From Pyrolobus fumarii 1A (lineage in GTDB: Archaea; Thermoproteota; Thermoprotei_A; Sulfolobales; Pyrodictiaceae), in NCBI RefSeq assembly GCF_000223395.1, contig NC_015931.1, positions 1,140,001 to 1,172,000 on the forward strand: a stretch of 32,000 bases of DNA, in the 5' to 3' direction. The notes under the pieces are model-generated. The model was not told where the DNA came from, ran no database searches, and worked only from the letters and a program-made list of their open reading frames with translations. The translations under genes were made by a program, and so were the position numbers. Each line of letters starts with the position of its first letter. Position 1 is the first letter of the stretch. This document shows positions 1-10,977 of this stretch, one piece after another.

Positions 1-894
1 AGGCATGACCCATTTCCCTCCGGGCCAGTCAACCTCCACGAAGTACGACCTGACTGTTAACCCCGTCTCCACGGTGAACCTCAGTACCACTTCCATCGTG
101 CCGTTCAGCACTGGTATCCGCCTCTCGGCTACCGTCTTGTCCGGGAGTAGCCTCCTATCCTGCCTGACCTTCACCACGACGTCGTGCGCGTAGCCGCTGA
201 GCCTTACCACCACGGTTACGGTCTCCCCCTCTGTTGCAGTGCCGCAGGGTACACCTCCGCAGAGCCACTCAACGCTCTCGATGTGGACTATGGGGTTGCC
301 AGAGTAGCCGGGTGCTATGCCAAGCTTCCGCTCAATACTCTCAACTACGCTCTTAACAGGCTTCATAGCCTTGGCTACAACCTCGCCAACCGGCACCCTG
401 CGCTCAAAGTAGACTACCATGCTTATGGGTAGCTTGGCACCGAGGAGGGTTAGCGGCACCACAGCCTCGCCCCTCAACACGATGTAGTTGGCCTCTTCGC
501 TCGACGAGGCCGCTAATGCCTCGAGGAGCTTGACTCCGTTGACATTCAGCCTTATCGGGAGTAGCTCCCAGCCGCCAGCCTTGACACAAGCGCCATGCTC
601 CGAGCGGAAGGTGCCAATAACCTCACCACCAAGCATGATAACACCATGCACCTCATCAATGCAGAGCATCACCGGTAGAGGCGCGCGAGGCGACACGTTA
701 AGATAGACGGTGAACTCCGCGCTGCCACCCTTCAAGAGCCCAACCAGGCCCGTAACCAGGCCCTTGACGTCAGCAACCTGGATGCCACCCTCCTCTAGGC
801 TGGAGGCAGCAACTTGCACAGCGTACCCATAGACGCCCAGGAGTATCACAGCAAGCACAACGATAGACGTTACTACCTTCGCCACCCTACCCAT
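1..894 (-). CDS. Membrane-anchored LEA14/WHy-like (LEA_2-type) protein with a C-terminal beta-rich domain. The C-terminus runs off the window. Paralog of 26671..27597.
   Basis: ATG at 894..892. I read all 298 minus-strand codons down to position 1 and found no stop. It is absent from the supplied track because no stop lies inside the window. The N-terminus MGRVAKVVTSIVVLAVILLGVYGYAV looks like a TM anchor. The C-terminal part ...VVVKVRQDRRLLPDKTVAERRIPVLNGT...SYFVEVDWPGGKWVMP aligns with ...VVVRVKQDRRLLPDKVVAEKRVPTVNGS...GYFVEVEWPEGKYVMP of 26671..27597. The fold name is from memory of the LEA_2 pattern. Confidence 0.7.
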   Translation of the reverse strand, partial: MGRVAKVVTSIVVLAVILLGVYGYAVQVAASSLEEGGIQVADVKGLVTGLVGLLKGGSAEFTVYLNVSPRAPLPVMLCIDEVHGVIMLGGEVIGTFRSEHGACVKAGGWELLPIRLNVNGVKLLEALAASSSEEANYIVLRGEAVVPLTLLGAKLPISMVVYFERRVPVGEVVAKAMKPVKSVVESIERKLGIAPGYSGNPIVHIESVEWLCGGVPCGTATEGETVTVVVRLSGYAHDVVVKVRQDRRLLPDKTVAERRIPVLNGTMEVVLRFTVETGLTVRSYFVEVDWPGGKWVMP

Positions 895-1164
895 ATCCCC
901 ACCCCACGCATATACATACACGCATAATCAACTAAAAATACCTTAACCAGACTCTATGCGCAACCTACTCGACCCAACCAACCGCCTAGAACAGGCTACG
1001 CTAGCCAATACCCCAGACAAGACAATCATATACACAGAGAGCAACAGTATAACACACGACGTGCTACTAGACGCCATTCCCTGCTACACATGGGTGGGTA
1101 GCGGAGCCTGCACTGTCAGCGGCTACCTCTGCGGTGGTAGATCCTGGAAACAAGACTAGGCGGC

Positions 1165-2619
1165 GTGTCCAATCACTTTAGTGGCTGGGGTTTCCCCATA
1201 CCCCTCTTTGGGTATGTGGTTGTGCGTGGCTGCCGTCTTATTGCGAGGAGCCTGGAAGTGCAAGGTTTCAAGAGCCTGCGTGACGTGAGGATCGAACTGA
1301 TGCCTGGGATTAACGTTGTTGTAGGTCCAAACGCATCGGGAAAGAGTAACATTGTTGATCTTTTTCTGTTCCTCCGGAAGGCTCTCTATGATGAACTCGG
1401 ACGTGTGCCTTATGCTCCTCACCTGCCTTGGGGTGACCCGAGGAACCTCACCTGGGAGACGAGCGGACTGCCGGTACGTGTCGCGATAGAGTACGAGCTG
1501 GTACTCGAGAAAGACGTGCGTCAGACTGTCATATATGAGGTCGTGTTCGGCCTTGAGGAGGGTGCGACCCTAAAGCCTATAGAGGAGTACATCCGCGTCC
1601 CGGTGCTTAATGCTGCACTGCTGCGGCGAGGTAGAAGGATAGACGTCTATCTCAGCAGGCGTTGGGGTAGAATAGAGCAGCTCGGAACCATGATGAAAAA
1701 AGCCGCTACTCTACTCGGTGCGGCGGAACTTGAGATACGGTGCGATGCACGCGGTTGCTACGCGGGCGCTACAGTCGAAAAAGAGTTCACCAGCATCTTT
1801 CAACTCGTCCCGATAACCTACGAGCCGTTGTTCGAGGCACTAAGCGACGTGATTAGAGAGTTTAGAGACCTGACTCGCCGCCTTAGTATCCGGTTTTACC
1901 GTAGCCTATCTATGGGCCTAGTCCTACCCTGGCCCCGCATCTTAAACCCGTGCTTAGAGCTAAACCGCTTACTACTGGTTATCCGCTCGTTCTTCGCCCG
2001 TATAGTGGCGTTACGCCTCATAGACTATTACCGTGCTAAGTGGCCACATAGGCCGAGCGTACGCGATAGGCTCGAGCCAGATGCTAGCAACCTAGCAGAG
2101 GTTATCTATACGCTGCTTAATGATCCGGAGAAGAGAGGCAAGCTCGAGAGTGTCGTCAGGAGTCTTTTCCCGTGGCTAAGGTTTAGTGTGGAGTTCGATG
2201 CTTACGGCAACATAGTCTTAAAGTTCTATGAGGAGAGGGGCGGACGCCTGCTAGAGTTACATCCAGCCATGGTTCCCGAGGGAGTAATAAAGCTACTCAC
2301 AGTGATGACCGGAATCCTCCTAGAACCAAGTATCCTCGTCATTGACGAGATAGAGGACAGTATGCATGCACGCATGATAGAACGATTGTTCGATGAACTC
2401 CGAGGTTTAGAGACCCCCGTCATTCTCACAACACACTCGCCAGTGATAGTCGACCTGGCAGGCCCCGAGCGCCTCATAGTATTGAGGAGAGGCAGTGATG
2501 GCGCTACAATCGCGGAGAGAGTAAGAGAGCCACAGAAGCTCCGCAAGATGCTCGAGGAGGAGGGCGTAACTCTAGGCTACTATTATCTTCACGCTCTGCC
2601 AGAGGAGGACACGGCATGA
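1165..2619 (+). CDS. ABC-type (SMC/RecF-like, AAA_15/AAA_21-type) ATPase; predicted NTPase subunit of a two-gene defence-like cassette.
   Basis: The N-terminus LEVQGFKSLRDVRIELMPGINVVVGPNASGKSNIVD contains a Walker A motif. The C-terminus has PEGVIKLLTVMTGILLEPSILVIDEIEDSMH (signature-like segment, Walker B, D-loop) and ILTTHSPVIVD (H-switch). The true start is probably an internal GTG at 1216 or 1222, because the first ~17 codons of the track ORF precede the usual N-terminal strand. Confidence 0.8.
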   Translation: MSNHFSGWGFPIPLFGYVVVRGCRLIARSLEVQGFKSLRDVRIELMPGINVVVGPNASGKSNIVDLFLFLRKALYDELGRVPYAPHLPWGDPRNLTWETSGLPVRVAIEYELVLEKDVRQTVIYEVVFGLEEGATLKPIEEYIRVPVLNAALLRRGRRIDVYLSRRWGRIEQLGTMMKKAATLLGAAELEIRCDARGCYAGATVEKEFTSIFQLVPITYEPLFEALSDVIREFRDLTRRLSIRFYRSLSMGLVLPWPRILNPCLELNRLLLVIRSFFARIVALRLIDYYRAKWPHRPSVRDRLEPDASNLAEVIYTLLNDPEKRGKLESVVRSLFPWLRFSVEFDAYGNIVLKFYEERGGRLLELHPAMVPEGVIKLLTVMTGILLEPSILVIDEIEDSMHARMIERLFDELRGLETPVILTTHSPVIVDLAGPERLIVLRRGSDGATIAERVREPQKLRKMLEEEGVTLGYYYLHALPEEDTA

Positions 2620-3224
2620 GCAAAACTATACGCATCTTTACACTAGTCGAAGATTCTAGGGGTCAACTAGCAATACACACCATCGTAAAGAGGCTAATTG
2701 ACTGTACCAGTCTAGTCTGCAACTGCAGGCTAGCACACCGCGTAGAGATGGCAAGAGCCCAGAAGTTCAAAGGCCCATGCAACCAAAGCTCCAGAATGCA
2801 AGTCAAGAGTCTAAAGGTACAAGCCAAGATGCGTGACAGAATACCATTGATACTAGTTTTCATCGACACTGATGTTTACAGGGATTACGATGAGATGGTT
2901 GAAAGGGTTTGCATGCATACCCGCGAGGAGTGTGAAAGCGGCCTGCTCTACGTTATACCCGTCGAGCATAACCTAGAGCACCTGCTATGCAGGATAATGG
3001 TTGCTACCAACACTGTAACCGGAAGCTGCAGAGACCCCGAAGGCACACTCTCAAGGCTCCTAGGCCACAAGTACGAGAAGACGTTTGCAGATAGACTAGC
3101 TCCACGCCTCGAAAGGAGCCTATCCGACTGTAAGGTAGTAGCAAGCCTCGCTAACAACATCAAGACATTACACGCCATCGCCGACGTGCTATGCAAACTA
3201 CTATGCAGCGAAAGCAACACATGA
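2616..3224 (+). CDS. Small TOPRIM-like protein (DUF4276/DUF4435-like); predicted nuclease partner of the upstream ATPase.
   Basis: Its ATG overlaps the ATPase TGA (ATGA at 2616-2619). An N-terminal acidic motif IRIFTLVEDSRG is followed by LILVFIDTDV (DxD) and VIPVEHNLEHLL. This matches the E...DxD...E layout of TOPRIM/OLD-type domains, and the 202-aa size is typical of DUF4276 as I recall it. The gene is visibly AT-richer than the ATPase gene. Confidence 0.5.
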   Translation: MSKTIRIFTLVEDSRGQLAIHTIVKRLIDCTSLVCNCRLAHRVEMARAQKFKGPCNQSSRMQVKSLKVQAKMRDRIPLILVFIDTDVYRDYDEMVERVCMHTREECESGLLYVIPVEHNLEHLLCRIMVATNTVTGSCRDPEGTLSRLLGHKYEKTFADRLAPRLERSLSDCKVVASLANNIKTLHAIADVLCKLLCSESNT

Positions 3225-3343
3225 AACAGTCGTTAAGCGGTAGTCAAAAACAATGCTAGTACAGTGCTCTTCGTCGAGAAGGGACACCCGCATCACAACG
3301 CTTCTTATTACCTCATTACTTGTAACCTCTTATCTCCTAGAGG

Positions 3344-4114
3344 GTGTTGTGCATGGAGACTGCTGCCAGTATCCTCTTATTCATTATGGGCTTGTTCCTA
3401 GTGCTCCTTGTGTTCCCGGTTGCATTTTACGCTAGCGCAGCGCTCGGCTACCTACTGGGCCTCGTCGCACTCGGGATAGGCGCCTACCTGATATTCAAAC
3501 GCGGTGGCAGAATCCTGCCAGCGGTTCTCGGCGTGATGCTCAGCGCCGCAGCGATCATAGCCTTAGGGGGTACAGCCCTGATACACATGAGCGTCTACGT
3601 AGCCAAGGAGGCTGTTGAGGAAGCTGCCGAGATGCTCCAGAACACCACTAGGACGAGAAGCCTGTCTGGCGTCGTCGGAGAGAGCCTCCAGGTGAACGAC
3701 TGGGCCATAAAAGTCGAGGAGGTGAGGGAGACAACAAGCATACTATACGACTCTACCCTGTACAAGGCGAAACCGGGCTACAAGATAGTAGTAGTGCGGC
3801 TGAGGGTAGAGAACACCGGCGGCGACGTGAAACACCTAACCGAGCTATGGGGGTATACCCTCGTCACCAACAGCAACAAGAGTTATGACAGCATATACCC
3901 GTTAGAGCTAGAACTCGTCTGGAACCTCACACCCAAGGACAAGGCAGAAGCTATAAAAGTCAAGCAAGTAAGCGGGGCAACTACACTGCCGCCAGGAGCA
4001 CACACCGAGTACGACATACTATTCCAGATACCCAGCAACGAGAACCCCCAGAAACTAGTAATCAGGATTGGGTTCGTAGGCGGGTACCTCGTTACGATAA
4101 AGCTAACGAGGTAA
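3344..4114 (+). CDS. Membrane protein with a C-terminal DUF4352-like (Ig-like, extracytoplasmic) domain.
   Basis: Three hydrophobic helices (ILLFIMGLFLVLLVFPVAFYA, LGYLLGLVALGIGAYLIF, LPAVLGVMLSAAAIIALGGTALI) precede VNDWAIKVEEVRE...GYKIVVVRLRVENTGGD...LPPGAHTEYDILFQIP, the usual DUF4352 pattern. The likely start is ATG 3353. Confidence 0.6.
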   Translation: MLCMETAASILLFIMGLFLVLLVFPVAFYASAALGYLLGLVALGIGAYLIFKRGGRILPAVLGVMLSAAAIIALGGTALIHMSVYVAKEAVEEAAEMLQNTTRTRSLSGVVGESLQVNDWAIKVEEVRETTSILYDSTLYKAKPGYKIVVVRLRVENTGGDVKHLTELWGYTLVTNSNKSYDSIYPLELELVWNLTPKDKAEAIKVKQVSGATTLPPGAHTEYDILFQIPSNENPQKLVIRIGFVGGYLVTIKLTR

Positions 4115-4196
4115 GACATGTGCAACGTGCCAGTCTTTTACTAGCTACGTGTTAGCCTCGTCATACCTGGAGCCGTTGTGAGAACCTATACGTGAT

Positions 4197-4645
4197 CTAC
4201 GGGACGGCTTTGAGTCGAGGTACTCTCTTGAAGTCCTCGTCGAAGGTGAGGATGATGTTTATGCCATAGCGTTTACACGTTAAAGCTATGATTGCGTCGC
4301 TCGGTAGGAGTCTTAGACGATTAGCAGTTTCTACCGCATCGTGTGCTCCACATTCTCTACTAAAACCTCTACCTCAAGGTCTTCCAGCAGTCCACGTATA
4401 CTGTCAACAATGAGCCTGGGGTATCCTCTATCCGCTATTAGTCTCCGTAGGCTGTAAGGGCCTCTAGCCCCCGTAACCTGGTAGTATTTCCTTGTGGCGA
4501 CGTAGAGTAGCTCGTTTACCACGGTTAGGCTCGTGTAGAACTCTATATCCTCATAGTCTTCTAGGAGCCTTCGTGCTGTTCGGGTCAAGCGGGTCTCGAA
4601 CAATATGTTGTAGAATGTGTTGGTGTCTATGAACACGCCGTTCAC
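4197..4645 (-). pseudogene. PIN-domain (VapC-like) toxin gene split by a frameshift.
   Basis: ORF 4331..4645 gives MNGVFIDTNTFYNI...LTVVNELLYV... and stops after ...ENVEHTMR. A different minus frame continues HDAVETANRLRLLPSDAIIALTCKRYGINIILTFDEDFKRVPRLKAVP* to a stop at 4197-4199. All four PIN acidic positions (FIDTN, NEL, SDAI, TFDEDF) are present but lie in two frames. Confidence 0.65.
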
Positions 4646-4843
4646 TGCGCCTGAGCCTCCTCCTCCTCGTACCTTTTCAACTCCTCGATGCTAGCTCTAC
4701 TAAACACCCCGACATACTTGTCGAGAACCTCTCACTCTACGCTTACGTATGAAGACTATCAGCTCCTCACACTCCTCCAGATCCAGCTTCTCAAGAGGCT
4801 TCAACACACCCTTCTCGTACCACACACGTACAACTTTAGACAA
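4642..4843 (-). pseudogene. DUF104/AF2212-like (VapB-type) antitoxin gene, apparently frameshifted.
   Basis: TTG at 4843 opens LSKVVRVWYEKGVLKPLEKLDLEECEELIVFIRKRR..., the typical DUF104 N-terminus, and stops at 4700-4702. A second frame (open from 4731) reads LDKYVGVFSRASIEELKRYEEEEAQAQ* and ends in a GTGA overlap with the PIN start (4645-4642), as expected of the original coupled operon. The ORF is too short for the supplied track. Confidence 0.5.
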
Positions 4844-4890
4844 CCTCCTCAACCCCGAGCATACACGAGGTTCTCAAGACCCTAGTATTT

Positions 4891-5140
4891 TTACCCATAC
4901 CTTGGATGGTTGAAAAGGAGATGTAAATTACTACGTCCCTCGAGGGATAGAAGGCGTGGCGCCGTGAGGCCCGAGTCTCTGGCTAGTATGATCCCCCAGG
5001 CTTGTCGTCATCCCGATCAGCTCTTGGTCATTGATATCCCTTACACTTATATTTTGTAGACGAACAGCATCTACGCCGTTCTTCTTTAAGAGCATCACCA
5101 GCCTCTCGGGTATATTCTCGTCGGCTAGAAGCCTCAGCAA
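4891..5140 (-). pseudogene. DUF5615 (Mut7-C/PIN-like) toxin-type gene, probably frameshifted at a homopolymer.
   Basis: MLRLLADENIPERLVMLLKKNGVDAVRLQNISVRDINDQELIG is the characteristic DUF5615 N-terminus, but the tail of the track ORF (...TTSLGDHTSQRLGPHGATPSIPRGT) is not protein-like. Removing one base from the C5 run at 4993-4997 (G5 on the coding strand) gives ...SLGIILARDSGLTAPRLLSLEGRSNLHLLFNHPRYG*, with a stop at 4891-4893. Confidence 0.45.
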
Positions 5141-5367
5141 CTACCATAACCCCTCTCAACGTCTCGTATGTGAACCTTGGGGCCTCGTAGACCGCCTCCA
5201 ACGGTATCTTAAGTTCCTTGGCAATCTCCTTAGGCTCCCAGCCAGCCTCAAGCATCTCGAGTATATCGTCAACAAACACACTTGTCTCTCACAGTAGGCT
5301 TGCCGCCACGCCGATCCGTGACCGCTTCAAGCCACTTACATCTCAGGCAAGACCCACCCTGAGGCAA
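5028..5367 (-). pseudogene. DUF433 antitoxin-type gene, frameshifted; partner of the DUF5615 gene.
   Basis: One minus frame reads ...KWLEAVTDRRGGKPTVRDKCVC* (stop 5269-5271). The next frame starts at 5279 with FVDDILEMLEAGWEPKEIAKELKIPLEAVYEA. Joined, they reproduce the DUF433 consensus (GkPvi.GTRi.V.dil.ll.aG.s.eeIa..yp.l..e.v.aAl). The 3' end is uncertain because the frame reads on into the DUF5615 gene. Confidence 0.5.
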
Positions 5368-5464
5368 TATCTCTAGACGAAAAGGTGTTACCCATAGCAA
5401 GGATAGACAAGGGTTGATTGCACTCCCACTCCAGGGTAGCGCTCTGCAGTACTCCACGGGAAGC

Positions 5465-6115
5465 CTATCTCTCACTACCGCTCCTCTCTTCCTCTCTCTG
5501 GGCGCCAGCGAGCAGCTTGTACAACTCGTCTATCCTCCTGTTAGTCTCGTCGATGCGTCTGTTCGTCTCCTCGATCTTCCTGCTAAGCTCGTCCCGCATC
5601 CTGTCCATCCTACTGCTTAGCTCGCTATACACCTCCTCGATTTTCCTACTCAGCTCGCTGCGCACCTCATCTATCTTCCTCGCGAGGCCCTCATAGACCC
5701 TGCTGATCTTCTCGCTCAGCTCGTCGTGAACCTTATCTATCCTCCTGTTCACCTCGTCTATGCGCTTGTTAAGCCCGTCGATTCTCTCGTTGATCCTCTC
5801 GTTCAACTCGTTTATCCTTTTATTCGTCTCATCTATACGCTTGTTCACCTCGTCTATCCTCTTGTTTGTCTCGTTGATCCTCCTGTTTAGCTCGTCGTGA
5901 ACCCGGTCAATCCTCCTGTTCGTCTCGTCTATACGCCTATGGACGAGCATAATCTGCTCGAGGATCTCCCTCCTAGACTCCCGGACCTCGTTGTAAACCA
6001 GGTCGAGCATCAGGAGCATGATCTCCTCGGGAGCAAGCCTCTTCCCACTCCTCACCTTCTCCAGTATAACCCTAGAAGCCTCCGCCAAGACACTAGCCAG
6101 GAGATCACTAGACAC
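5465..6115 (-). CDS. Coiled-coil protein built from heptad N(K/R)RIDE(T/V)-type repeats.
   Basis: Residues ~59-198 read RRIDETN RRIDRVH DELNRRI NETNKRIDEVNKRIDETNKRINELNERINERIDGLNKRIDEVNRRIDKVHDEL...IEETNRRIDETNRRIDELYKLL. The whole ORF is open, and the plus-strand ORFs opposite it are low-complexity shadows. Confidence 0.8.
   Translation of the reverse strand: MSSDLLASVLAEASRVILEKVRSGKRLAPEEIMLLMLDLVYNEVRESRREILEQIMLVHRRIDETNRRIDRVHDELNRRINETNKRIDEVNKRIDETNKRINELNERINERIDGLNKRIDEVNRRIDKVHDELSEKISRVYEGLARKIDEVRSELSRKIEEVYSELSSRMDRMRDELSRKIEETNRRIDETNRRIDELYKLLAGAQREEERSGSER
5522..5941 (-). repeat. In-frame, degenerate 21-nt tandem periodicity inside the coiled-coil CDS.
   Basis: Plus-strand units recur every 21 nt, for example ctcgtctatcctcctgtt / ctcgtcgatgcgtctgtt / ctcatctatacgcttgtt / ctcgtctatcctcttgtt / ctcgttgatcctcctgtt. 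This corresponds to the 7-aa protein repeat. Confidence 0.75.
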
Positions 6116-6397
6116 AGCACAACACCATAGTCAGATGCTAATCACCCACCCAAATGGGTTAAGATGCGTGAAGAGCCCCGAGTCCAAAAGCCGCCACACC
6201 TCATAGCCGATATTATAGCCGGTATTCGCAACACTACCCCCGCAAGCCACGGTTACCGCATCAACCTCTCCACCTCCCCACCGGGCTCGCCATCCGGAGG
6301 CTCAACGCCAAACCTACCCCCAGCAACCTCCCCCGAGCCGCAACGAGGACCTTCGCACATCAAGCTCCTTCAAGAGCCCATCCCATCCACGCCACGA

Positions 6398-6472
6398 GTG
6401 ATTCTCAACGCAGCGGCAATCATAGTCTTGGAGACGGTCTTGTTGCACACTAACATCTATGTAGCCAAGGGT
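6398..6472 (+). pseudogene. Short remnant homologous to the TM3 region of the DUF4352 membrane protein gene (3344..4114).
   Basis: VILNAAAIIVLE-TVLLHTNIYVAKG (6398-6472) aligns with VMLSAAAIIALGGTALIHMSVYVAKE (about 3533-3610) with a one-codon gap. The flanks show stops in all frames and no convincing continuation. Confidence 0.3.
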
Positions 6473-6957
6473 GACCCATTAACGCTGGTAGTACTGGTAG
6501 AGCAGTTGTAGCCACGCATACGATATGGTTACCCATGCATGATTGCCATTGTTTAGCTCGTGAGTAGCCTGGAGAATAGGGGTGGAGTAGGACAACTAGA
6601 GTCAACCGCACCGAAGCTAGGAGGCCTATGATATGATACACCTTGTGAGGCTGCACATGTGGACCTGAAGCGTGCCTATGTACTCATGTAGTATAGTAGT
6701 AGGTTCGTCATCCTTCCTCGTAGCTCTCTCAAACCTGTCTATCCTTCTCCCTCGAGTCTCCGCAGATTCTCCTTGTCGTCACCTCGCATAGCATAACGCT
6801 GATAGCCACTGTTCTTAGCTCTTTAGCTCTTCGGAGGCTTGCCCAGCACGGGTAGCCCGGCAAGCCTCCTCCTATTATCTCTCGATTAGCTATGGTAATG
6901 TGTGCCGCGCTTACACCAGTGCAGCTGAGGAGCCAGCTTAACGGTCGCCCCGGGGCC

Positions 6958-7302
6958 CTAGAGGAGTCTCATCCAGTACTCCATCGCATCCTGTACCACT
7001 ACACTCCTCTTCTTGGCCCTCTCGAACTCCTCCGGCGTATAGAGGAGTATTTCGAGCGACACGTCACCCGGCAACAGTTCCCGTATCATGGCATACCTCT
7101 TGCCTGGGTCGAGCCCCCTGAACCTCGGCGAGACTATGATGAGGTCTATGTCGCTATCCTCGAGCCAGTCGCCACGCGCATAGCTCCCGAAGAGGTAGAC
7201 CTGGGCCTCGCCGAGGACGGCCCTAACCCTCTCGACGATCTCCGCTAGCACCCTCCTGACCCTCTCTGGGAGCCCCGGTGAACCCGAGGAGCCTACCGAC
7301 AT
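6958..7302 (-). CDS. Minimal nucleotidyltransferase (MNT, Pol-beta superfamily), HEPN-MNT pair A.
   Basis: AQVYLFGSYARGDWLEDSDIDLIIVS carries the G[SG]...DxD motif. It overlaps the 3' end of the upstream HEPN gene. The true start may be the internal GTG giving MLAEIVERVRAVLGE.... Confidence 0.85.
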   Translation of the reverse strand: MSVGSSGSPGLPERVRRVLAEIVERVRAVLGEAQVYLFGSYARGDWLEDSDIDLIIVSPRFRGLDPGKRYAMIRELLPGDVSLEILLYTPEEFERAKKRSVVVQDAMEYWMRLL

Positions 7303-7669
7303 GCTCCACCACCCTCTCAGCTACACCCACAAGCCTCTCAGCAGTCTCCCTGGGTATACTCTCCCAGGGCCTCTCTAATCCGGCATTCGGGTACCTGGCG
7401 AGCGTATAGTAGGGGGTGAGCTCGGCGACACCCACGTAGAGCTCGCGGGGGAGCCTCAACCCGAGACCCTCGACGAGTCTAACAAGATCGTGTGTCTTAG
7501 GCGGCCTAGCCCTCTTCAATACCATGTATGCGGCTTTCAACGCCTTCTCGACAGCCTGGTGCGCGGCAAAAAGAGCCCAGTTGTACCTACCCCGCCTCAA
7601 CGCATCCCGAGCCTCATCGAGATCGACAAGAGCGCCATCAAACCAGTCTCTAGCCTCACTCCTAACCAA
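7223..7669 (-). CDS. HEPN-domain protein, pair A.
   Basis: ARDWFDGALVDLDEARDALRRGRYNWALFAAHQAVEKALKAAYMVLK...PKTHDLVRLVE...YTLARYPN is the typical PF05168-type HEPN layout. It lies immediately upstream of an MNT gene. Confidence 0.85.
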   Translation of the reverse strand: MVRSEARDWFDGALVDLDEARDALRRGRYNWALFAAHQAVEKALKAAYMVLKRARPPKTHDLVRLVEGLGLRLPRELYVGVAELTPYYTLARYPNAGLERPWESIPRETAERLVGVAERVVEHVGRLLGFTGAPREGQEGASGDRREG

Positions 7670-8182
7670 CGCTCCAACCCACTAGCACGCCACACACGCC
7701 GGGAGAAAAACGCGATGAAACCACGTTCGCAGCCACAAACCAAGAATACAAGGTCGTGGACCCGAGATACCCGCCCTAGCCGAGAGCACCTACCTCAAGC
7801 TGTCATACACGCCCGTGAGGCTCTGGCCTGAAGCGGTAACCATCTAGACTAGATTGGCACGCCGTGCACAGGTAGACCTGCGACATTTGAGATGGTCTAG
7901 GTGAGGAGAATGGAGGCTCGTGGGGACGCGAAGGACGTGGAGATGATCCTGTGCCGATGCTCGCAAGGCGTTTGCTCGATACGCGCCCGGCGAATATCTA
8001 GACATACGATGACAACGTGGCATTGCTGTTCCCGTTCGGAATGGTAGCGTGCTACCCGTAGACCGCGTGGTTTAAACTATCGGGTGGGCCTCGGGGACGC
8101 TGCCCGCGGGTTTCGCCGCTAGACCCCCAGAGCTTAAGACGGTGGAACGCTGGTTAACCGACCTTATGGGGCTTGCACGCCA

Positions 8183-8758
8183 GTGCTTGCCGAGCATCTA
8201 GACCGGCCTCTGCCCAAGCCGCGGCGCGACCCCGTGGGCTACGCCGCTGCTCGTGCGCTAGAGGCTCTGCTGGAAGCTGTGCTGGCTCTCGTGTTCCTCG
8301 AGAAGGGCTTCACCCGGAATGCTGCCGGGAAGGCGTTCCAAGCCTGGAAGGCGCTGACGGCAGCACTCCTGGCCCTAGAGAGGGATAGGATAGCTGAGGG
8401 GCTGAGGGACGAGGAGCAGAGGAGATGGCTACTCGAGAGGGGTATACCCAGAGTCCCTAGTAGCAGGCTTAAGCATCTAAGCCAGCTCCTAGAGAAGGCG
8501 GGAATCAACTACTACAGCTTCATCACCGATAAGGCCCTGAGCCTCCACGACTACCAGTACCACAGCCCAGACCCGGACCTCGAGCTTAGCAAGTACCGGA
8601 GCCGAAGCGAAGCGGTATACGATATCGTGGCTCTACTGGCGGAGCTAGCCAGGATAACCGAGGAGCTAGTGAAACCGAGGCTACGGGAAGCGAACAAGTG
8701 GGACAAGAGCCACGAGGAGGCCCTACAAGAGCTACGAGAGAAGCTAGCCAGCCGCTAG
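8183..8758 (+). CDS. Long PaREP1-like family protein, copy 1 (function unknown).
   Basis: One of four ~190-aa paralogs sharing the invariant TRNAAGKAFQAW and (H/Y)(D/E)YQYH(G/S)PDPD blocks. The helix pattern FLEKG.TRNAAGKAFQAWKAL...LSLHDYQYH parallels the EKAWGAAALAVKA...MHTCFYEG core of the classical PaREP1 gene at 15625..16137. Confidence 0.75.
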   Translation: MLAEHLDRPLPKPRRDPVGYAAARALEALLEAVLALVFLEKGFTRNAAGKAFQAWKALTAALLALERDRIAEGLRDEEQRRWLLERGIPRVPSSRLKHLSQLLEKAGINYYSFITDKALSLHDYQYHSPDPDLELSKYRSRSEAVYDIVALLAELARITEELVKPRLREANKWDKSHEEALQELREKLASR

Positions 8759-8908
8759 CAGCCACACAACCCACCCTGCGAACCCCTCCCGGCGAACACC
8801 AAGCACCCACACCAAGCCACACCGGCCGACACGGCACACACGCCGGGAGAAGCCAGACAGAACCCACACCGGGGCCCCTCCCCCTCGCCCGCGTGCCCAC
8901 TGAACGAG

Positions 8909-10066
8909 TTACACCGAGCCAATCGGAGCTATCTGGGCGACGTAGGCCCTCACAGCCCACGATGAGAGACTCTTGGGACCCAACAGCTTCTCAGTCACAC
9001 CGAGCAGCTCTTGCAGCGCTTGTATCGTGTAGGTGTGGCCTAGCGCGGTCTCGAGCCTCGCCCTTGGAGCCACGAACGTCAGCTGAGGAGCCAAGAGACT
9101 AGCCACGATAACATCCGCTAGCAGCTCGTGGGGCACCGCGAGATTAGCGGCTAACAGCCTACAAGCGTCCACGTATAGCGCGGGGCCGACCAGCAACCCT
9201 AGCCTCTCGAAGTGTCTCGACACCTCCTCTACGATAGCCCAGAGTCTGCTCGGAGCGGTCAAGTGCGGGGCTATCCTCTCCGTGTCAAGTGGTGCTAGTG
9301 GCGCCTCGAACCTGGCTACGACGTTCCTCGGTAGAAGGCTCCAGGGTTCTCTACGCACGGCCTTCGGTAGATCAGCTAGCGTGGATCTCACACTCTCGGC
9401 GCATATGTCTGTACGTCCCGGCCTGGCGGGTTCCAGGTCCTCCGGGACCTCGACAATGTGCCCTAGACTCGTTACGGGTAGCAGAGGTGCCCTACGGGCA
9501 AACGCATACCCTATCCTGTAGAGGTGCCCCATATCGAGAAGGTTCATTGTCGCTATCATTCTCCAAGCGAGGGGCATCGGCAGGCCTCTCCTAGACGCGT
9601 ACTCGGCTAGCTTCTCGGCCACCGGGTTCAAAGAGCCGCATTCCTCCCTAACGCTCTCCCGCAGAACCCTGGCTAGCTCCTCGCTAGGCCTGAGAAGCGT
9701 GAAGCGAACCCTATGGTCAACATCGAGAAGCGTGAATACCTCGCCAAGCACGACCTCGACTCTGGCCCGGTTAACCTCGTCAAAGATAAACCAAACGGGT
9801 GTCTTCCCGCATGTGTACCTGGCCCACGTGCGTATCACAGAGCGTGCCAGGGCACCCTCCTCTACATCCATGAGGTCGCTGTAGTTGAGATCCTCGCGGC
9901 CAGTCACAAACTCGTAGTCATAGCCACGCTCTTCTGCCAGGAGCACAGCTAACCGGGTCTTCCCGGAGCCTGGCGGGCCAACCAAGCAGAGCGACTTGTC
10001 AGCCCTCAAGAGATACTCGGCAGCCTCGCGGGTCGTCACCTGGTAGGCTCGCACCTTGCTATGCAC
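8909..10066 (-). CDS. mcrB: McrB-like AAA_5 NTPase lacking an N-terminal DNA-reading domain.
   Basis: Walker A LVGPPGSGKT lies at residues 28-37. FIFDEVNRARVEVVLGEVFTLLDVDHR matches the McrB-family DEiNRan...fGE...llE..R signature, and MIATMNLLDMGHLYRIGYAFARRA matches the GTMNtaD...D.AlRRRF segment. A further ~170 aa of unknown C-terminal extension follows. Confidence 0.7.
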   Translation of the reverse strand: MHSKVRAYQVTTREAAEYLLRADKSLCLVGPPGSGKTRLAVLLAEERGYDYEFVTGREDLNYSDLMDVEEGALARSVIRTWARYTCGKTPVWFIFDEVNRARVEVVLGEVFTLLDVDHRVRFTLLRPSEELARVLRESVREECGSLNPVAEKLAEYASRRGLPMPLAWRMIATMNLLDMGHLYRIGYAFARRAPLLPVTSLGHIVEVPEDLEPARPGRTDICAESVRSTLADLPKAVRREPWSLLPRNVVARFEAPLAPLDTERIAPHLTAPSRLWAIVEEVSRHFERLGLLVGPALYVDACRLLAANLAVPHELLADVIVASLLAPQLTFVAPRARLETALGHTYTIQALQELLGVTEKLLGPKSLSSWAVRAYVAQIAPIGSV

Positions 10067-10977
10067 GCTTCCACCTCCTCATCTATCTCGTTAGGCGCGA
10101 CGCCTAGCACCCTGACATCAAGGGTATAGAGGCTAGGATCTAGTAGCTCTGCGGTCATTCCAATCCTCTTAGCAGCCTCACGTAGAGCGTTCAGCGCCGA
10201 TTGTGTAGACCTGACCTGCTCGACCGCACGGCACAATAGCCGTAGCTCGGCTGTGAGCAGCTCCGCGACACGCCCTCGGGGATCACCAGTCTTCACGGGT
10301 ATCAGTGGCGCAAGCTTGCCAGCGATACGTGAGCCACGCAAGTGTTCCTGCATGTACCGGAGGGTGCCCGCCGTGCAGACATCGGCGCTAACGGTGCTAG
10401 CTATGCCGACGGCTATCGCTAGGAGGTGATACGCGGGAGTCACGCGTAGAAGCGTACCCAGCAGGAAGATGATAGACCCCACGGTGACGGCATCCAACTG
10501 CATACCATACGCTCTGACCACACTAGCGATGCTCTCGGCGAGCTCGGTTAGTAGAGCCTTGTTGTTCTTCTCCCACTCGCTACAAGCCTCATCGTCATTC
10601 TCCAGGCGAATGACATAGCCTCTACGAAGGTCGTTCACCATCGGTGGGTATACACGGATAGACCTACGCAACTTATCATCGAGATCCTCGCAGCTCAGCT
10701 CAACTATGAAACGTGCGGATTTGCCAAGCTTGGTGCTCAGCTCGCCCTTCAGCATCAGAAGCAATAGGGACTCTACAGCATCCCTCCCCCACGTTCCAGC
10801 CTTCAAGGCACCCTCAACGAGACTAGCATAACGCTCACAGCCGGAGGGCACTGCAAGAACCTCAATACCAGTAGCGTGTATCGTGAAGCCACCTAGAAGG
10901 GCTAGCGTAGTGTCCACATTCGTACGCAAATATGGCGCATCGAGTGTCTGGAAGAAGTATGGGTTGTAGCGTGCCAC
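10036..10977 (-). CDS. Hypothetical 313-aa protein, translationally coupled upstream of the McrB-like gene.
   Basis: Long open frame with a GTG start at 10977. Its 3' end overlaps the McrB-like start by 31 nt. I recognise no motif. There is a hydrophobic stretch LDAVTVGSIIFLLGTLLRVTPAYHLLAIAVGIASTV in the middle. Confidence 0.6.
   Translation of the reverse strand: MARYNPYFFQTLDAPYLRTNVDTTLALLGGFTIHATGIEVLAVPSGCERYASLVEGALKAGTWGRDAVESLLLLMLKGELSTKLGKSARFIVELSCEDLDDKLRRSIRVYPPMVNDLRRGYVIRLENDDEACSEWEKNNKALLTELAESIASVVRAYGMQLDAVTVGSIIFLLGTLLRVTPAYHLLAIAVGIASTVSADVCTAGTLRYMQEHLRGSRIAGKLAPLIPVKTGDPRGRVAELLTAELRLLCRAVEQVRSTQSALNALREAAKRIGMTAELLDPSLYTLDVRVLGVAPNEIDEEVEACIARCEPTR

What the first reader, a model, noticed from the sequence alone, without database searches (positions are those of the whole stretch)
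1165..3224. ABC-ATPase plus small TOPRIM-like protein operon (OLD/PARIS/Gabija-type architecture) in a hyperthermophile
A 484-aa RecF/SMC-like ABC ATPase has an N-terminal Walker A, then ILVIDEIEDSMH and TTHSP at the C-terminus. It is translationally coupled (ATGA, 2616-2619) to a 202-aa protein with an E...DxD...E layout (LVEDSRG, FIDTDV, VEHNLEH) consistent with a TOPRIM/DUF4276-like nuclease. Split or fused ATPase+TOPRIM is the logic of OLD nucleases, Gabija GajA and PARIS AriA/AriB. I know of no characterised archaeal hyperthermophile version. The second gene is clearly AT-richer than the first and than the surrounding genes, which suggests foreign origin or modular exchange of the effector.
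Basis: partly seen in the sequence, partly recalled or inferred. Interest (0 to 1): 0.65.

Follow-up and report, generated by a model that had tools for sequence, protein, structure and literature searches.

The report
Archaeal ABC-ATPase plus DUF4276-like nuclease pair
Two overlapping genes in what is almost certainly the 106 °C archaeon Pyrolobus fumarii encode an ABC-type ATPase and a small, very divergent DUF4276-like (probable metal-dependent nuclease) partner; the pair is conserved across Archaea, resembles known but poorly characterised bacterial anti-virus modules, and has no demonstrated function.

Summary
An ABC ATPase gene (maximal ORF 1165-2619, likely start GTG 1222) overlaps by ATGA a 202-aa gene (2616-3224).

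- **ATPase:** It passes the Pfam AAA_21 and AAA_15 thresholds. Its best PADLOC match is HEC-01A.
- **Small protein:** It hits no Pfam model itself. Its family does link to DUF4276, Mad4 and HEC-01B. The window subfamily matches a DUF4276-positive Thermococcales subfamily with 96.4% probability, and 12 of 61 members hit DUF4276, 22 of 61 Mad4 and 20 of 61 HEC-01B.
- **Conservation:** In 80 archaeal genome loci, the partner lies directly downstream in 72 to 73 of the 74 loci with room. The two proteins co-diverge (r=0.94). E12, D13, D84, D/E86, E121, Y153 and K155 are nearly invariant.

- Foldseek with a confident model (pLDDT 88) found no TOPRIM structure, only generic α/β sandwiches. "TOPRIM" therefore rests on motifs, topology and published work on DUF4276.
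- The lower GC of gene 2 is not an outlier, and co-evolution argues against effector swapping.
- The context across Archaea is housekeeping-like, with no plasmid or virus copies, and HEC-01 gave no defence when tested in E. coli.

Verdict: a new, divergent archaeal member of the known ABC-ATPase plus DUF4276/TOPRIM-like class. A defence role is plausible but unproven.

The parts
928..1221 (.). Divergent intergenic region upstream of the ATPase gene. It presumably holds the operon's promoter, which was not identified.
   Evidence: A minus-strand gene occupies 1-927 and runs off the window start. Sequence was read. No promoter element was verified.
1222..2619 (+). ABC ATPase gene of the AAA_21/AAA_15 type, 465 aa. 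The maximal ORF begins at GTG 1165 (484 aa).
   Evidence: ORF. Pfam AAA_21 scores 78.9 bits (cut-off 27) and AAA_15 50.4 bits (cut-off 32.1). The best PADLOC match is HEC-01A at 2.6e-29. The start is inferred from conservation with L001.
1324..1347 (+). Walker A / P-loop GPNASGKS
   Evidence: The G..N..GK.N residues are invariant in the 15-sequence ATPase alignment A6.
2272..2298 (+). Signature-like segment VPEGVIKLL, which aligns with ISDGFYKLL in relatives
   Evidence: G and K are invariant in A6.
2332..2367 (+). Walker B and D-loop, ILVIDEIEDSMH
   Evidence: D375, E376, E378 and H382 of the 465-aa form are invariant.
2428..2442 (+). H-loop TTHSP
   Evidence: T, H, S and P are invariant in A6.
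2602..2609 (+). Purine-rich GAGGAGGA run ending 6 nt before the partner's ATG. It is a possible ribosome-binding site inside the end of the ATPase gene.
   Evidence: Read directly from the sequence. Function is inferred.
2616..2619 (+). ATGA start/stop overlap that couples the two genes
2616..3224 (+). Gene for a 202-aa DUF4276-like, probably TOPRIM-superfamily, partner protein
   Evidence: ORF. hhalign against the DUF4276-positive subfamily gives 96.4% probability and E=1.2e-9. The AF2 model has pLDDT 88.1, with a four-strand β-α core followed by a C-terminal helical part. A homolog lies directly downstream of the ATPase in 72-73 of 74 loci.
2649..2654 (+). E12-D13, immediately after strand β1. 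This is the position of the TOPRIM-type glutamate.
   Evidence: Both residues are 65/65 conserved. Strand 4-11 is seen in the model.
2865..2873 (+). D84-T-D86, a DxD motif at the end of strand β3. It is the inferred metal A site.
   Evidence: D84 is 65/65. Position 86 is D in 43 and E in 19 of 65. Strand 76-84 is seen in the model.
2976..2978 (+). E121, after strand β4. It is the inferred second metal ligand.
   Evidence: Conserved 64/65. Strand 111-116 and helix 120-130 are seen in the model.
3072..3080 (+). Y153-E-K155 in the C-terminal helical part. K155 is the inferred catalytic basic residue.
   Evidence: Y153 is 64/65 and K155 is 63/65. The analogy is to K562 of BpOLD, which the helical domain contributes.

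Best explanation
A two-gene operon encodes an ABC-type ATPase of the AAA_15/AAA_21 group and a small partner that is a very divergent relative of DUF4276, Mad4 and HEC-01B.

**Shown**
- The two genes overlap by ATGA.
- They are almost always adjacent across Archaea.
- They co-diverge as a unit.
- The partner keeps a nearly invariant set of residues: E12, D13, D84, D/E86, E121, Y153 and K155.
- These residues sit on a four-strand β-α core followed by a helical C-terminal part.

**Inferred**
- The partner is a TOPRIM-superfamily nuclease using two metal ions. The DxD would be metal site A, E121 site B, and K155 the basic catalytic residue.
- It forms a complex with the ATPase.
- The ATPase acts as sensor or gatekeeper and uses ATP binding or hydrolysis to release or activate the nuclease. 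This is how PARIS AriA/AriB works, and it matches the logic of OLD, Gabija and MADS Mad3/Mad4.
- The most likely biological role is defence against viruses or foreign nucleic acid, or abortive infection. The substrate (DNA or tRNA) is unknown.
For: - **ATPase identity:** Pfam AAA_21 and AAA_15 score above threshold. HEC-01A is the best PADLOC match at 2.6e-29, followed by PDC-M25A, mad3 and AriA. The closest solved relatives are OLD, PtuA, retron ATPases, GajA and AriA. Walker A, Walker B and the H-loop are invariant.
- **Partner family link:** The profile search reaches Thermococcales proteins, two of which carry PF14103. P0096 passes the DUF4276 gathering score with 32.3 against 30.2 bits. 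hhalign of the window subfamily against that subfamily gives 96.4% probability and E=1.2e-9, with the motifs aligned. Of 61 members, 12 hit DUF4276, 22 hit mad4, and 20 and 8 hit two HEC-01B models.
- **Catalytic-type residues** are nearly invariant in 65 sequences. They sit after β1, after β3 and after β4 of a confident model with pLDDT 88.1 and pTM 0.86.
- **Module conservation:** The partner lies directly downstream in 72-73 of 74 loci. Identities co-vary with r=0.94 and Mantel p=0.001. Similarity to the closest relative stops at the cassette borders.
- **Literature:** DUF4276 and RloB are assigned to the Toprim superfamily with E and DxD motifs (PMC12065111). HEC-01B is TOPRIM-like and shares a metal site with BpOLD (bioRxiv 10.1101/2024.01.29.577857). 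MADS3-4 and AbiL are listed as ABC ATPase plus TOPRIM systems (PMC11464382). Deleting mad3 or mad4 impairs defence.
Against: - The window protein has no Pfam, NCBIfam or PHROG hit. Its only PADLOC hit is weak and partial: HEC-01B, E=0.0027, covering 84 of 218 profile positions.
- Family consensus sequences stay below the DUF4276 threshold, at 24 against 30.2 bits.
- Foldseek found no TOPRIM structure among the top 50 hits in PDB or BFVD, and nothing at E<=1e-3.
- A profile search of PDB sequences found nothing.
- No defence evidence exists for this family. HEC-01 gave no protection in E. coli.
- Flanking genes across Archaea are mostly housekeeping: UvrB, PTH2, TruD and tRNA synthetases.
- No copy was found on plasmids, phages or IMG/VR contigs.
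Confidence: 0.6

Rival explanations
1. The pair is a vertically inherited cellular (housekeeping) ATPase-nuclease pair. It would act in DNA repair or in tRNA/rRNA processing rather than in defence.
For: - Flanking genes in 80 loci are housekeeping and lineage-specific. UvrB lies directly upstream on the same strand in 12 Methanoperedens-group loci. PTH2 lies upstream and TruD downstream in Thermococcus.
- No restriction, Cas, integrase or transposase family appears among the top 25 neighbour families.
- No plasmid, phage or viral-contig copies were found.
- The ATPase is also related to RecF, Rad50 and SMC.
- HEC-01 gave no defence in E. coli.
Against: - Only 264 relatives were confirmed among 185,579 species genomes, so the pair is far from universal in Archaea.
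- The window cassette and its closest relative sit in unrelated flanks.
- One relative lies 1.5 kb from an integrase (L004).
- The partner is interrupted or split in about 8 loci, which suggests a dispensable or toxic gene.
- The nearest named families (HEC-01, Mad3/4, AriA, AbiL) are all defence-associated.
- The UvrB and PTH2/TruD links each come from a single lineage, so each counts as one evolutionary event.
Confidence: 0.22
2. The pair is a toxin-antitoxin or abortive-infection addiction module of the AbiEii or AbiL kind. The small protein would be a toxin held in check by the ATPase, with no specific sensing of invaders.
For: - Pfam describes AAA_21 as 'putative AbiEii toxin, Type IV TA system'.
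- AbiLi models hit the ATPase, and an AbiLii model hits one partner.
- The window neighbourhood is rich in TA genes: PIN, DUF433/DUF5615, MNT-HEPN and PaREP1.
- The partner gene is recurrently disrupted.
Against: - The AbiL hits are much weaker than the HEC-01A hits.
- TA-rich surroundings are common in crenarchaeal hyperthermophile genomes (general knowledge).
- Stable synteny within genera is unusual for addiction modules.
Confidence: 0.1
3. The small protein is not a nuclease. It would be a Rossmann-like adaptor or regulatory subunit whose conserved acidic residues bind a ligand or metal for another purpose.
For: - The best Foldseek hits are TIR, lumazine synthase, Arf GTPases, SGNH hydrolases and the Argonaute MID domain. 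No TOPRIM appears.
- No canonical Toprim Pfam model is hit, even by consensus sequences.
Against: - None of those fold hits is significant (E>1e-3, TM 0.27-0.48).
- The pattern of E after β1, DxD after β3, an acidic residue after β4 and an invariant Lys matches the TOPRIM/OLD two-metal layout described.
- The only recurrent family hits are DUF4276, mad4, HEC-01B and RloB.
Confidence: 0.08

Closest known systems
PADLOC candidate system HEC-01 (HEC-01A ABC ATPase plus HEC-01B TOPRIM-like protein; Payne et al., bioRxiv 10.1101/2024.01.29.577857)
   Same: - It has the same two-gene architecture.
- HEC-01A models are the best PADLOC hits for the ATPase at 2.6e-29.
- HEC-01B is the only PADLOC hit for the window partner. 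It also hits 20 of 61 and 8 of 61 family members, down to 5e-9.
   Different: - The window partner's hit is weak and partial (E=0.0027, 84 of 218 positions).
- HEC-01 was defined from genes embedded in bacterial Hma systems. Here there is no Hma context, and the family is archaeal.
- HEC-01 itself showed no defence in the published assay.
MADS Mad3 (AAA ATPase) and Mad4 (DUF4276)
   Same: - It is an ATPase plus a DUF4276-type partner.
- The mad3 model hits the ATPase at 1.6e-21.
- The mad4 model hits 22 of 61 partners.
- mad3 and mad4 are needed for full MADS defence.
   Different: - NCBIfam MAD3 scores 71 bits against a cut-off of 420.
- The mad4 model does not hit the window protein.
- No methyltransferase or other MADS genes lie nearby.
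- Here the pair stands alone.
PARIS (AriA ABC ATPase plus AriB DUF4435 TOPRIM nuclease)
   Same: - It is a split ATPase plus small-nuclease pair, and the two genes co-evolve.
- AriA models hit the ATPase at 2.5e-21.
- It is the best-understood mechanistic model. The ATPase scaffold holds the nuclease until a trigger releases it.
   Different: - The partner gives no DUF4435 or AriB hit.
- AriA is a weaker match than HEC-01A.
- PARIS is often carried by phages or satellites, whereas no mobile-element copies were found for this family.
OLD family nucleases and Gabija GajA
   Same: - The ABC ATPase branch is the same. OLD 6p74 is the top solved hit at 6e-13, and GajA also matches.
- The acidic E / DxD / E plus basic-residue layout is analogous to the OLD two-metal site.
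   Different: - OLD and GajA fuse the ATPase and Toprim in one polypeptide. Here they are separate genes.
- No UvrD-like helicase (GajB or a class 2 partner) is adjacent. The downstream gene is a DUF4352 membrane protein.
- No Toprim_OLD Pfam hit was found.
Pfam DUF4276 (PF14103) and RloB (PF13707)
   Same: - These are the only Pfam families recurrently touched by the partner family. DUF4276 is hit by 12 of 61 members, and one member scores above threshold. RloB gives weak hits.
- Both are small partners of AAA_21-type ATPases and have been assigned to the Toprim superfamily.
   Different: - The window protein and most members fall below threshold.
- The window subfamily is about 30 residues longer and carries a Cys-rich insertion, with 11 Cys in 202 aa.

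Membership tests
ABC ATPase, Pfam AAA_21 (PF13304) / AAA_15 (PF13175) | Score above the Pfam gathering threshold | tested here: met
   AAA_21 scores 78.9 bits (cut-off 27) and AAA_15 scores 50.4 bits (cut-off 32.1).
ABC ATPase, Pfam AAA_21 (PF13304) / AAA_15 (PF13175) | Walker A, Walker B with catalytic Glu, and H-loop all intact | tested here: met
   GPNASGKS, ILVIDEIEDSMH and TTHSP are present. They are invariant in the 15-sequence alignment.
Pfam DUF4276 (PF14103) | The window protein itself reaches the gathering threshold | tested here: not met
   There is no Pfam hit at E<=1. Family consensus sequences reach only 24 bits against 30.2.
Pfam DUF4276 (PF14103) | Remote homology at the family level | tested here: met
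   P0096 scores 32.3 bits against 30.2. Twelve of 61 members hit at E<=0.01. hhalign of the window subfamily against the DUF4276-positive subfamily gives 96.4% probability and E=1.2e-9.
Toprim superfamily | Conserved Glu on the β1-α1 loop | tested here: met
   E12 is 65/65 conserved. It directly follows strand 4-11 of the model.
Toprim superfamily | Conserved DxD after β3 | tested here: met
   D84 is 65/65. Position 86 is D or E in 62 of 65. Both lie at the end of strand 76-84.
Toprim superfamily | Three-layer α/β fold with sheet order 2-1-3-4 that superposes on a solved Toprim domain | tested here: inconclusive
   The order of secondary-structure elements, β1-α1-β2-α2-β3-α3-β4-α4, fits. Foldseek gave no Toprim in the top 50 hits and nothing at E<=1e-3.
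PADLOC HEC-01 | HEC-01A hit on the ATPase | tested here: met
   Model PDLC04182 hits at 2.6e-29, and several other HEC-01A models also hit.
PADLOC HEC-01 | HEC-01B hit on the adjacent partner | tested here: inconclusive
   The window protein hits at E=0.0027 over 84 of 218 profile positions. Relatives hit down to 5e-9.
PADLOC HEC-01 | Anti-phage activity | not testable with these tools
   The published HEC-01 representative gave no protection against the phages tested in E. coli.
PARIS (AriA/AriB) | Partner is a DUF4435/AriB TOPRIM protein | tested here: not met
   The partner gives no DUF4435 or AriB hit in Pfam or PADLOC.
OLD class 1/2 and Gabija GajA | ATPase and Toprim fused in one polypeptide; for class 2 and Gabija, an adjacent UvrD-like helicase | tested here: not met
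   There are two separate ORFs. The downstream neighbour is a DUF4352 membrane protein.
MADS | Mad3 equivalog score, and presence of the mandatory MADS genes mad6-8 plus a methyltransferase | tested here: not met
   NCBIfam MAD3 scores 71.1 bits against a cut-off of 420. The genes scanned from 3344 to 10977 are DUF4352, PIN, DUF433, DUF5615, a coiled-coil protein, MNT, HEPN, PaREP1, AAA_5 and one 313-aa ORF with no Pfam hit.

The most novel reading that the evidence does not exclude
This archaea-wide ATPase plus DUF4276-like pair may not be an antiviral system at all. It could be a vertically inherited cellular machine. It lies next to UvrB in Methanoperedens and between the tRNA-related genes pth2 and truD in Thermococcus. 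Its role would be DNA repair or tRNA/RNA surveillance. It could represent the ancestral cellular form from which bacterial OLD, PARIS and MADS-type defence modules were recruited.
Probability: 0.15. Interest if true: 0.7.

Novelty: new member of a known kind. Interest (0 to 1): 0.4.

Why it matters
ABC-ATPase plus TOPRIM modules (OLD, Gabija, PARIS, Mad3/4) are a major theme in bacterial immunity, but the DUF4276/HEC-01 branch has no demonstrated activity or mechanism, and I found no paper on an archaeal version.

This analysis defines a coherent archaeal family.
- The partner lies directly downstream of the ATPase in 72-73 of the 74 loci that had room for it.
- The two proteins co-evolve.
- A putative active site of E12, D13, D84, D/E86, E121 and K155 is nearly invariant.
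- One member is from an organism that grows optimally at 106 °C.

Such proteins would be attractive for structural and biochemical work on how the ATPase gates the nuclease. The housekeeping-like context also raises a testable question: is this branch immune at all? Standard tools miss the partner, because the window protein has no Pfam hit, so defence-system censuses of hyperthermophiles probably overlook it.

Tried and rejected
- **Single-sequence searches for the partner found almost nothing.** The word-seeded search returned only the protein itself and one 68% homolog. The exhaustive HMMER scan of 1.84 billion representatives with a two-sequence profile returned only the protein itself. 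The family was reached instead through synteny with ATPase homologs.
- **Pfam, NCBIfam and PHROGs on the window partner:** no hits.
- **Foldseek of the full model against PDB and BFVD:** only non-significant generic α/β folds.
- **Core-only model (residues 1-136):** it collapsed to pLDDT 61, so its fold search is not informative.
- **Profile searches of PDB sequences with A5 and A8:** nothing.
- **Rfam and tRNA scans of the window:** nothing.
- **The ORF-free 1.1 kb upstream:** a minus-strand gene running off the window explains bases 1-927, and no repeats were found there.
- **Foreign origin or effector swapping:** rejected on GC statistics and co-evolution.
- **Membership of PARIS, OLD, Gabija or MADS:** rejected on partner type, gene fusion state and missing companion genes (see the membership table).
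- **Plasmid, phage and viral-contig searches for either gene:** no match. tblastn sensitivity is limited for so divergent a family.
Full report
**1. Observation**

The two ORFs are present as described: 1165-2619 (+, 484 aa, GTG start) and 2616-3224 (+, 202 aa, ATG start). The ATPase carries Walker A GPNASGKS (nt 1324-1347), Walker B/D-loop ILVIDEIEDSMH (2332-2367) and H-loop TTHSP (2428-2442). The small protein carries LVEDSRG, FIDTDV and VEHNLEH.

The junction reads ...ACG GCA TGA overlapping ATG AGC, so the ATGA lies at 2616-2619. A GAGGAGGA run at 2602-2609 ends 6 nt upstream of the ATG.

The real ATPase start is probably GTG 1222, giving 465 aa. Conservation with the closest homolog begins at 'VVR.CR', and both genes read GTT GTG CGT there. 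Databases hold both the 465-aa and the 484-aa versions.

The region upstream is not empty. A minus-strand gene runs from 927 off the window start, which leaves a divergent intergenic region at 928-1221.

**2. Source organism**

The longest contig carrying both proteins is 1,843,267 bp. This is exactly the published size of the Pyrolobus fumarii 1A genome, an organism with optimal growth at 106 °C (PMC3156397). This is an inference from the length match. The window's own genome was not among the loci returned by the genome scan.

**3. The ATPase**

- It passes Pfam AAA_21 (78.9 bits, cut-off 27) and AAA_15 (50.4 bits, cut-off 32.1).
- In PADLOC the best matches are HEC-01A models (2.6e-29). PDC-M25A, mad3, AriA, AbiLi and GajA follow.
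- No NCBIfam equivalog threshold is reached. MAD3 scores 71 bits against a cut-off of 420.
- A family profile matches solved OLD (6p74, 6e-13), Septu PtuA, retron ATPases, SMC, Rad50, RecF, GajA and AriA. The matches cover only the P-loop and the signature/Walker B segments.

It is therefore an ABC ATPase of the OLD/PtuA/GajA/AriA (AAA_15/21) branch, with no close solved relative.

**4. The small protein**

On its own it hits nothing in Pfam, NCBIfam or PHROGs. Its only PADLOC hit is a weak, partial match to HEC-01B (E=0.0027, residues 1-86). Direct homolog searches were nearly empty.

The family was recovered through synteny. Homologs of the ATPase at 27-68% identity each have a small same-strand gene directly downstream. 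These small proteins are homologous to the window protein. L001_B is 53% identical, L006_B matches at E=5e-10 and L004_B at 1.6e-6.

A profile of these proteins reached about 35 more proteins, mostly from Thermococcus. Two carry PF14103 (DUF4276), and UniRef names two others 'DUF4276 family protein'. One of them, P0096, passes the DUF4276 gathering score with 32.3 against 30.2 bits. Several also touch RloB.

To guard against a chained inference, I compared separate profiles. The window subfamily (A3) against the DUF4276-positive subfamily (A4) gives hhalign probability 96.4% and E=1.2e-9. The ED.G, DxD, E..E and Y.K motifs are in register.

Across 61 members scanned one by one, the only recurrent hits are:
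- DUF4276 in 12 members;
- mad4 in 22 members;
- two HEC-01B models, in 20 and 8 members.

Subgroup consensus sequences still reach only DUF4276 (24 bits, below threshold) and weakly RloB. They hit no canonical Toprim model.

The protein is therefore a peripheral, archaeal relative of DUF4276, Mad4 and HEC-01B. It is not a formal Pfam member.

**5. Conservation of the pair**

A genome scan with the ATPase alignment confirmed 264 relatives among one genome for each of 185,579 species. The 80 best loci are all archaeal. They include Desulfurococcales, Pyrodictiaceae, Vulcanisaeta, Thermococcus, Methanoperedens, Bathyarchaeota, Asgard lineages, Altiarchaeales and Archaeoglobales.

- Of the 74 loci with at least 500 nt downstream, 72 have a partner-HMM hit directly downstream on the same strand. 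The count is 73 if L051 is included, which narrowly missed my gap window. The clear exception is Pyrobaculum sp. WP30.
- Pairwise identities of ATPases and partners correlate, with r=0.94 and Mantel p=0.001 over 53 pairs. The two genes evolve as one unit.

It also argues against 'modular exchange of the effector'.

**6. Catalytic-type residues and structure**

In 65 aligned partners the following are conserved:

| Position | Conservation |
|---|---|
| E12 | 65/65 |
| D13 | 65/65 |
| D84 | 65/65 |
| 86 | D or E in 62/65 |
| E121 | 64/65 |
| Y153 | 64/65 |
| K155 | 63/65 |
| G16, C55, H101, W123, C125 | at or above 58/65 |

AlphaFold2 with a 34-sequence alignment gives a confident model, with pLDDT 88.1 and pTM 0.86. 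Its elements are β1 (4-11), α1, β2 (42-45), α2, β3 (76-84), α3, β4 (111-116) and α4, followed by four C-terminal helices.

E12 and D13 follow β1, the DxD ends β3, and E121 follows β4. This is the TOPRIM signature as defined in PMC12065111. It also resembles the OLD two-metal site: the DxD as metal A, a downstream acidic residue as metal B, and a basic residue such as BpOLD K562 from the helical domain (PMC7049728). K155 is the candidate for that basic residue, by inference.

Foldseek did not retrieve any TOPRIM structure. The best PDB and BFVD hits are non-significant generic α/β sandwiches, namely TIR, lumazine synthase, Arf GTPases, SGNH hydrolases and the Ago MID domain, with TM 0.27-0.48.

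A core-only model was poor (pLDDT 61), which indicates that the C-terminal helices pack against the core as one unit. Its fold search was equally uninformative.

The TOPRIM assignment therefore rests on three things: motif placement, element order, and published assignments for DUF4276 and HEC-01B. It does not rest on a structural match obtained here.

**7. Composition**

ORF2 has GC 0.484, ORF1 0.532 and the window 0.551. ORF2 is the lowest of 33 ORFs, but z is only -1.75 and four other ORFs sit at 0.49-0.50. Its GC3 of 0.552 is undercut by three ORFs. This is not evidence for a separate origin of the second gene.

**8. Context and function**

*In the window.* The pair is followed by a DUF4352 membrane protein and then by TA-type genes: PIN, DUF433/DUF5615, MNT-HEPN and PaREP1. 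An AAA_5 ATPase lies further on.

*Across Archaea.* The nearest flanking genes are mostly housekeeping and lineage-specific:
- UvrB lies directly upstream in 12 Methanoperedens-group loci.
- PTH2 lies upstream and TruD downstream in Thermococcus.
- AP endonuclease, rhomboid and tRNA synthetases also recur.
- No restriction, Cas, integrase or transposase family appears among the 25 most frequent.

*Mobile elements.* Neither gene has detectable relatives on plasmids, phages or IMG/VR contigs.

*Signs of a movable or dispensable cassette.*
- The window cassette and its closest relative share similarity only over 1204-3206, and their flanks are unrelated.
- One relative lies near an integrase.
- The partner is interrupted or split in about 8 loci.
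- One close homolog lacks the β4-E121 segment.

*Literature.* The published HEC-01 representative gave no phage protection in E. coli. mad3 and mad4 are needed for MADS defence. PARIS shows how an AAA_15/21 ATPase can gate a TOPRIM nuclease.

I therefore favour an ATPase-gated nuclease with an immune or abortive-infection role, at about 0.6 for the whole statement. The architecture and the nuclease inference are more secure than the defence role. A housekeeping repair or RNA-processing role is a serious rival, at about 0.2.

**9. Novelty**

The architecture is known, and PADLOC models already touch this family, so it is a new and divergent archaeal member of a known kind. I found no paper on an archaeal DUF4276-type pair. 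Full-text searches for DUF4276 and PF14103 returned only bacterial defence papers.

Interest is moderate. The family is well defined and comes from an extreme hyperthermophile. Its context also raises the open question of whether this branch is immune at all.

Noticed in passing
window 1-927 (-): A gene of at least 309 codons runs off the window start on the minus strand. Its N-terminus is hydrophobic (MGRVAKVVTSIVVLAVILLGVYGYAV...). The ORF list omits it because it is cut by the window edge.
   Followed up: partly
window 2616-3224 (+); residues C30, C35, C37, C55, C99, C106, C125, C138, C172, C193, C197: The small protein has 11 cysteines in 202 residues, against 4 in 465 for the ATPase. C55 and C125 are conserved family-wide. 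C35, C37, C138 and C197 are invariant in all four sequences of the window-subfamily alignment A3, which also carries an insertion of about 30 residues. This could be a zinc site or stabilising disulfides.
   Followed up: partly
P0002 (68% homolog, 1052-bp ENA contig), aligned to window residues 116-124: This close homolog lacks the nine residues VEHNLEHLL. That segment includes the otherwise nearly invariant E121, so this may be a degenerate copy or an assembly artefact.
   Followed up: no
L003:5340-5480; L013, L023, L030, L041, L057, L072, L078 downstream of the ATPase match: In about 8 loci the partner gene is interrupted by a stop or split into two ORFs. This could mean recurrent inactivation of a toxic effector, or frameshift errors in MAG assemblies. 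Whether the adjacent ATPase reading frames are intact was not checked.
   Followed up: partly
L037, L038, L050, L051, L052, L070, L072, L073, L074, L076, L084, L087, about 1000-2940 (+): In the Methanoperedens-group loci, a full-length UvrB gene lies directly upstream of the ATPase on the same strand, separated by tens to a few hundred bases. This is a possible link to DNA repair, but it represents a single lineage.
   Followed up: partly
L022, L029, L032, L033, L035, L036 flanks: In Thermococcus the pair sits between the peptidyl-tRNA hydrolase gene pth2 (upstream) and the tRNA pseudouridine synthase gene truD (downstream). Both are tRNA-related housekeeping genes on the same strand.
   Followed up: partly
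window 5465-6115 (-): A 216-aa protein is made almost entirely of tandem coiled-coil repeats (NKRIDEVNKRIDETNKRINELNERINERIDGLNKRIDEV...). It matches dozens of coiled-coil Pfam families non-specifically.
   Followed up: no
window 6958-7302 (-) and 7223-7669 (-): This is a HEPN (E=2.9e-28) and MNT nucleotidyltransferase (7.5e-16) toxin-antitoxin pair. The listed ORFs overlap by 80 nt, so the MNT start is probably internal.
   Followed up: no
window 4331-4645 (-), 4931-5140 (-), 5028-5279 (-): There is a short (104 aa) PIN-domain ORF, and a DUF433/DUF5615 pair whose ORFs overlap by more than 100 nt in different frames. These may be decayed TA modules.
   Followed up: no
window 8909-10066 (-) and 10036-10977 (-): An AAA_5 (dynein-related/McrB-like) ATPase gene is preceded by, and overlaps, a 313-aa ORF with no Pfam hit. 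This is another uncharacterised ATPase-plus-partner pair, a few kb from the finding.
   Followed up: no
L075 (Pyrobaculum sp. WP30, CP012158.1) 3001-4410 and downstream: This is the only locus with ample downstream sequence where the ATPase relative (24% identity) has no recognisable DUF4276-like partner. It may pair with a different effector.
   Followed up: no
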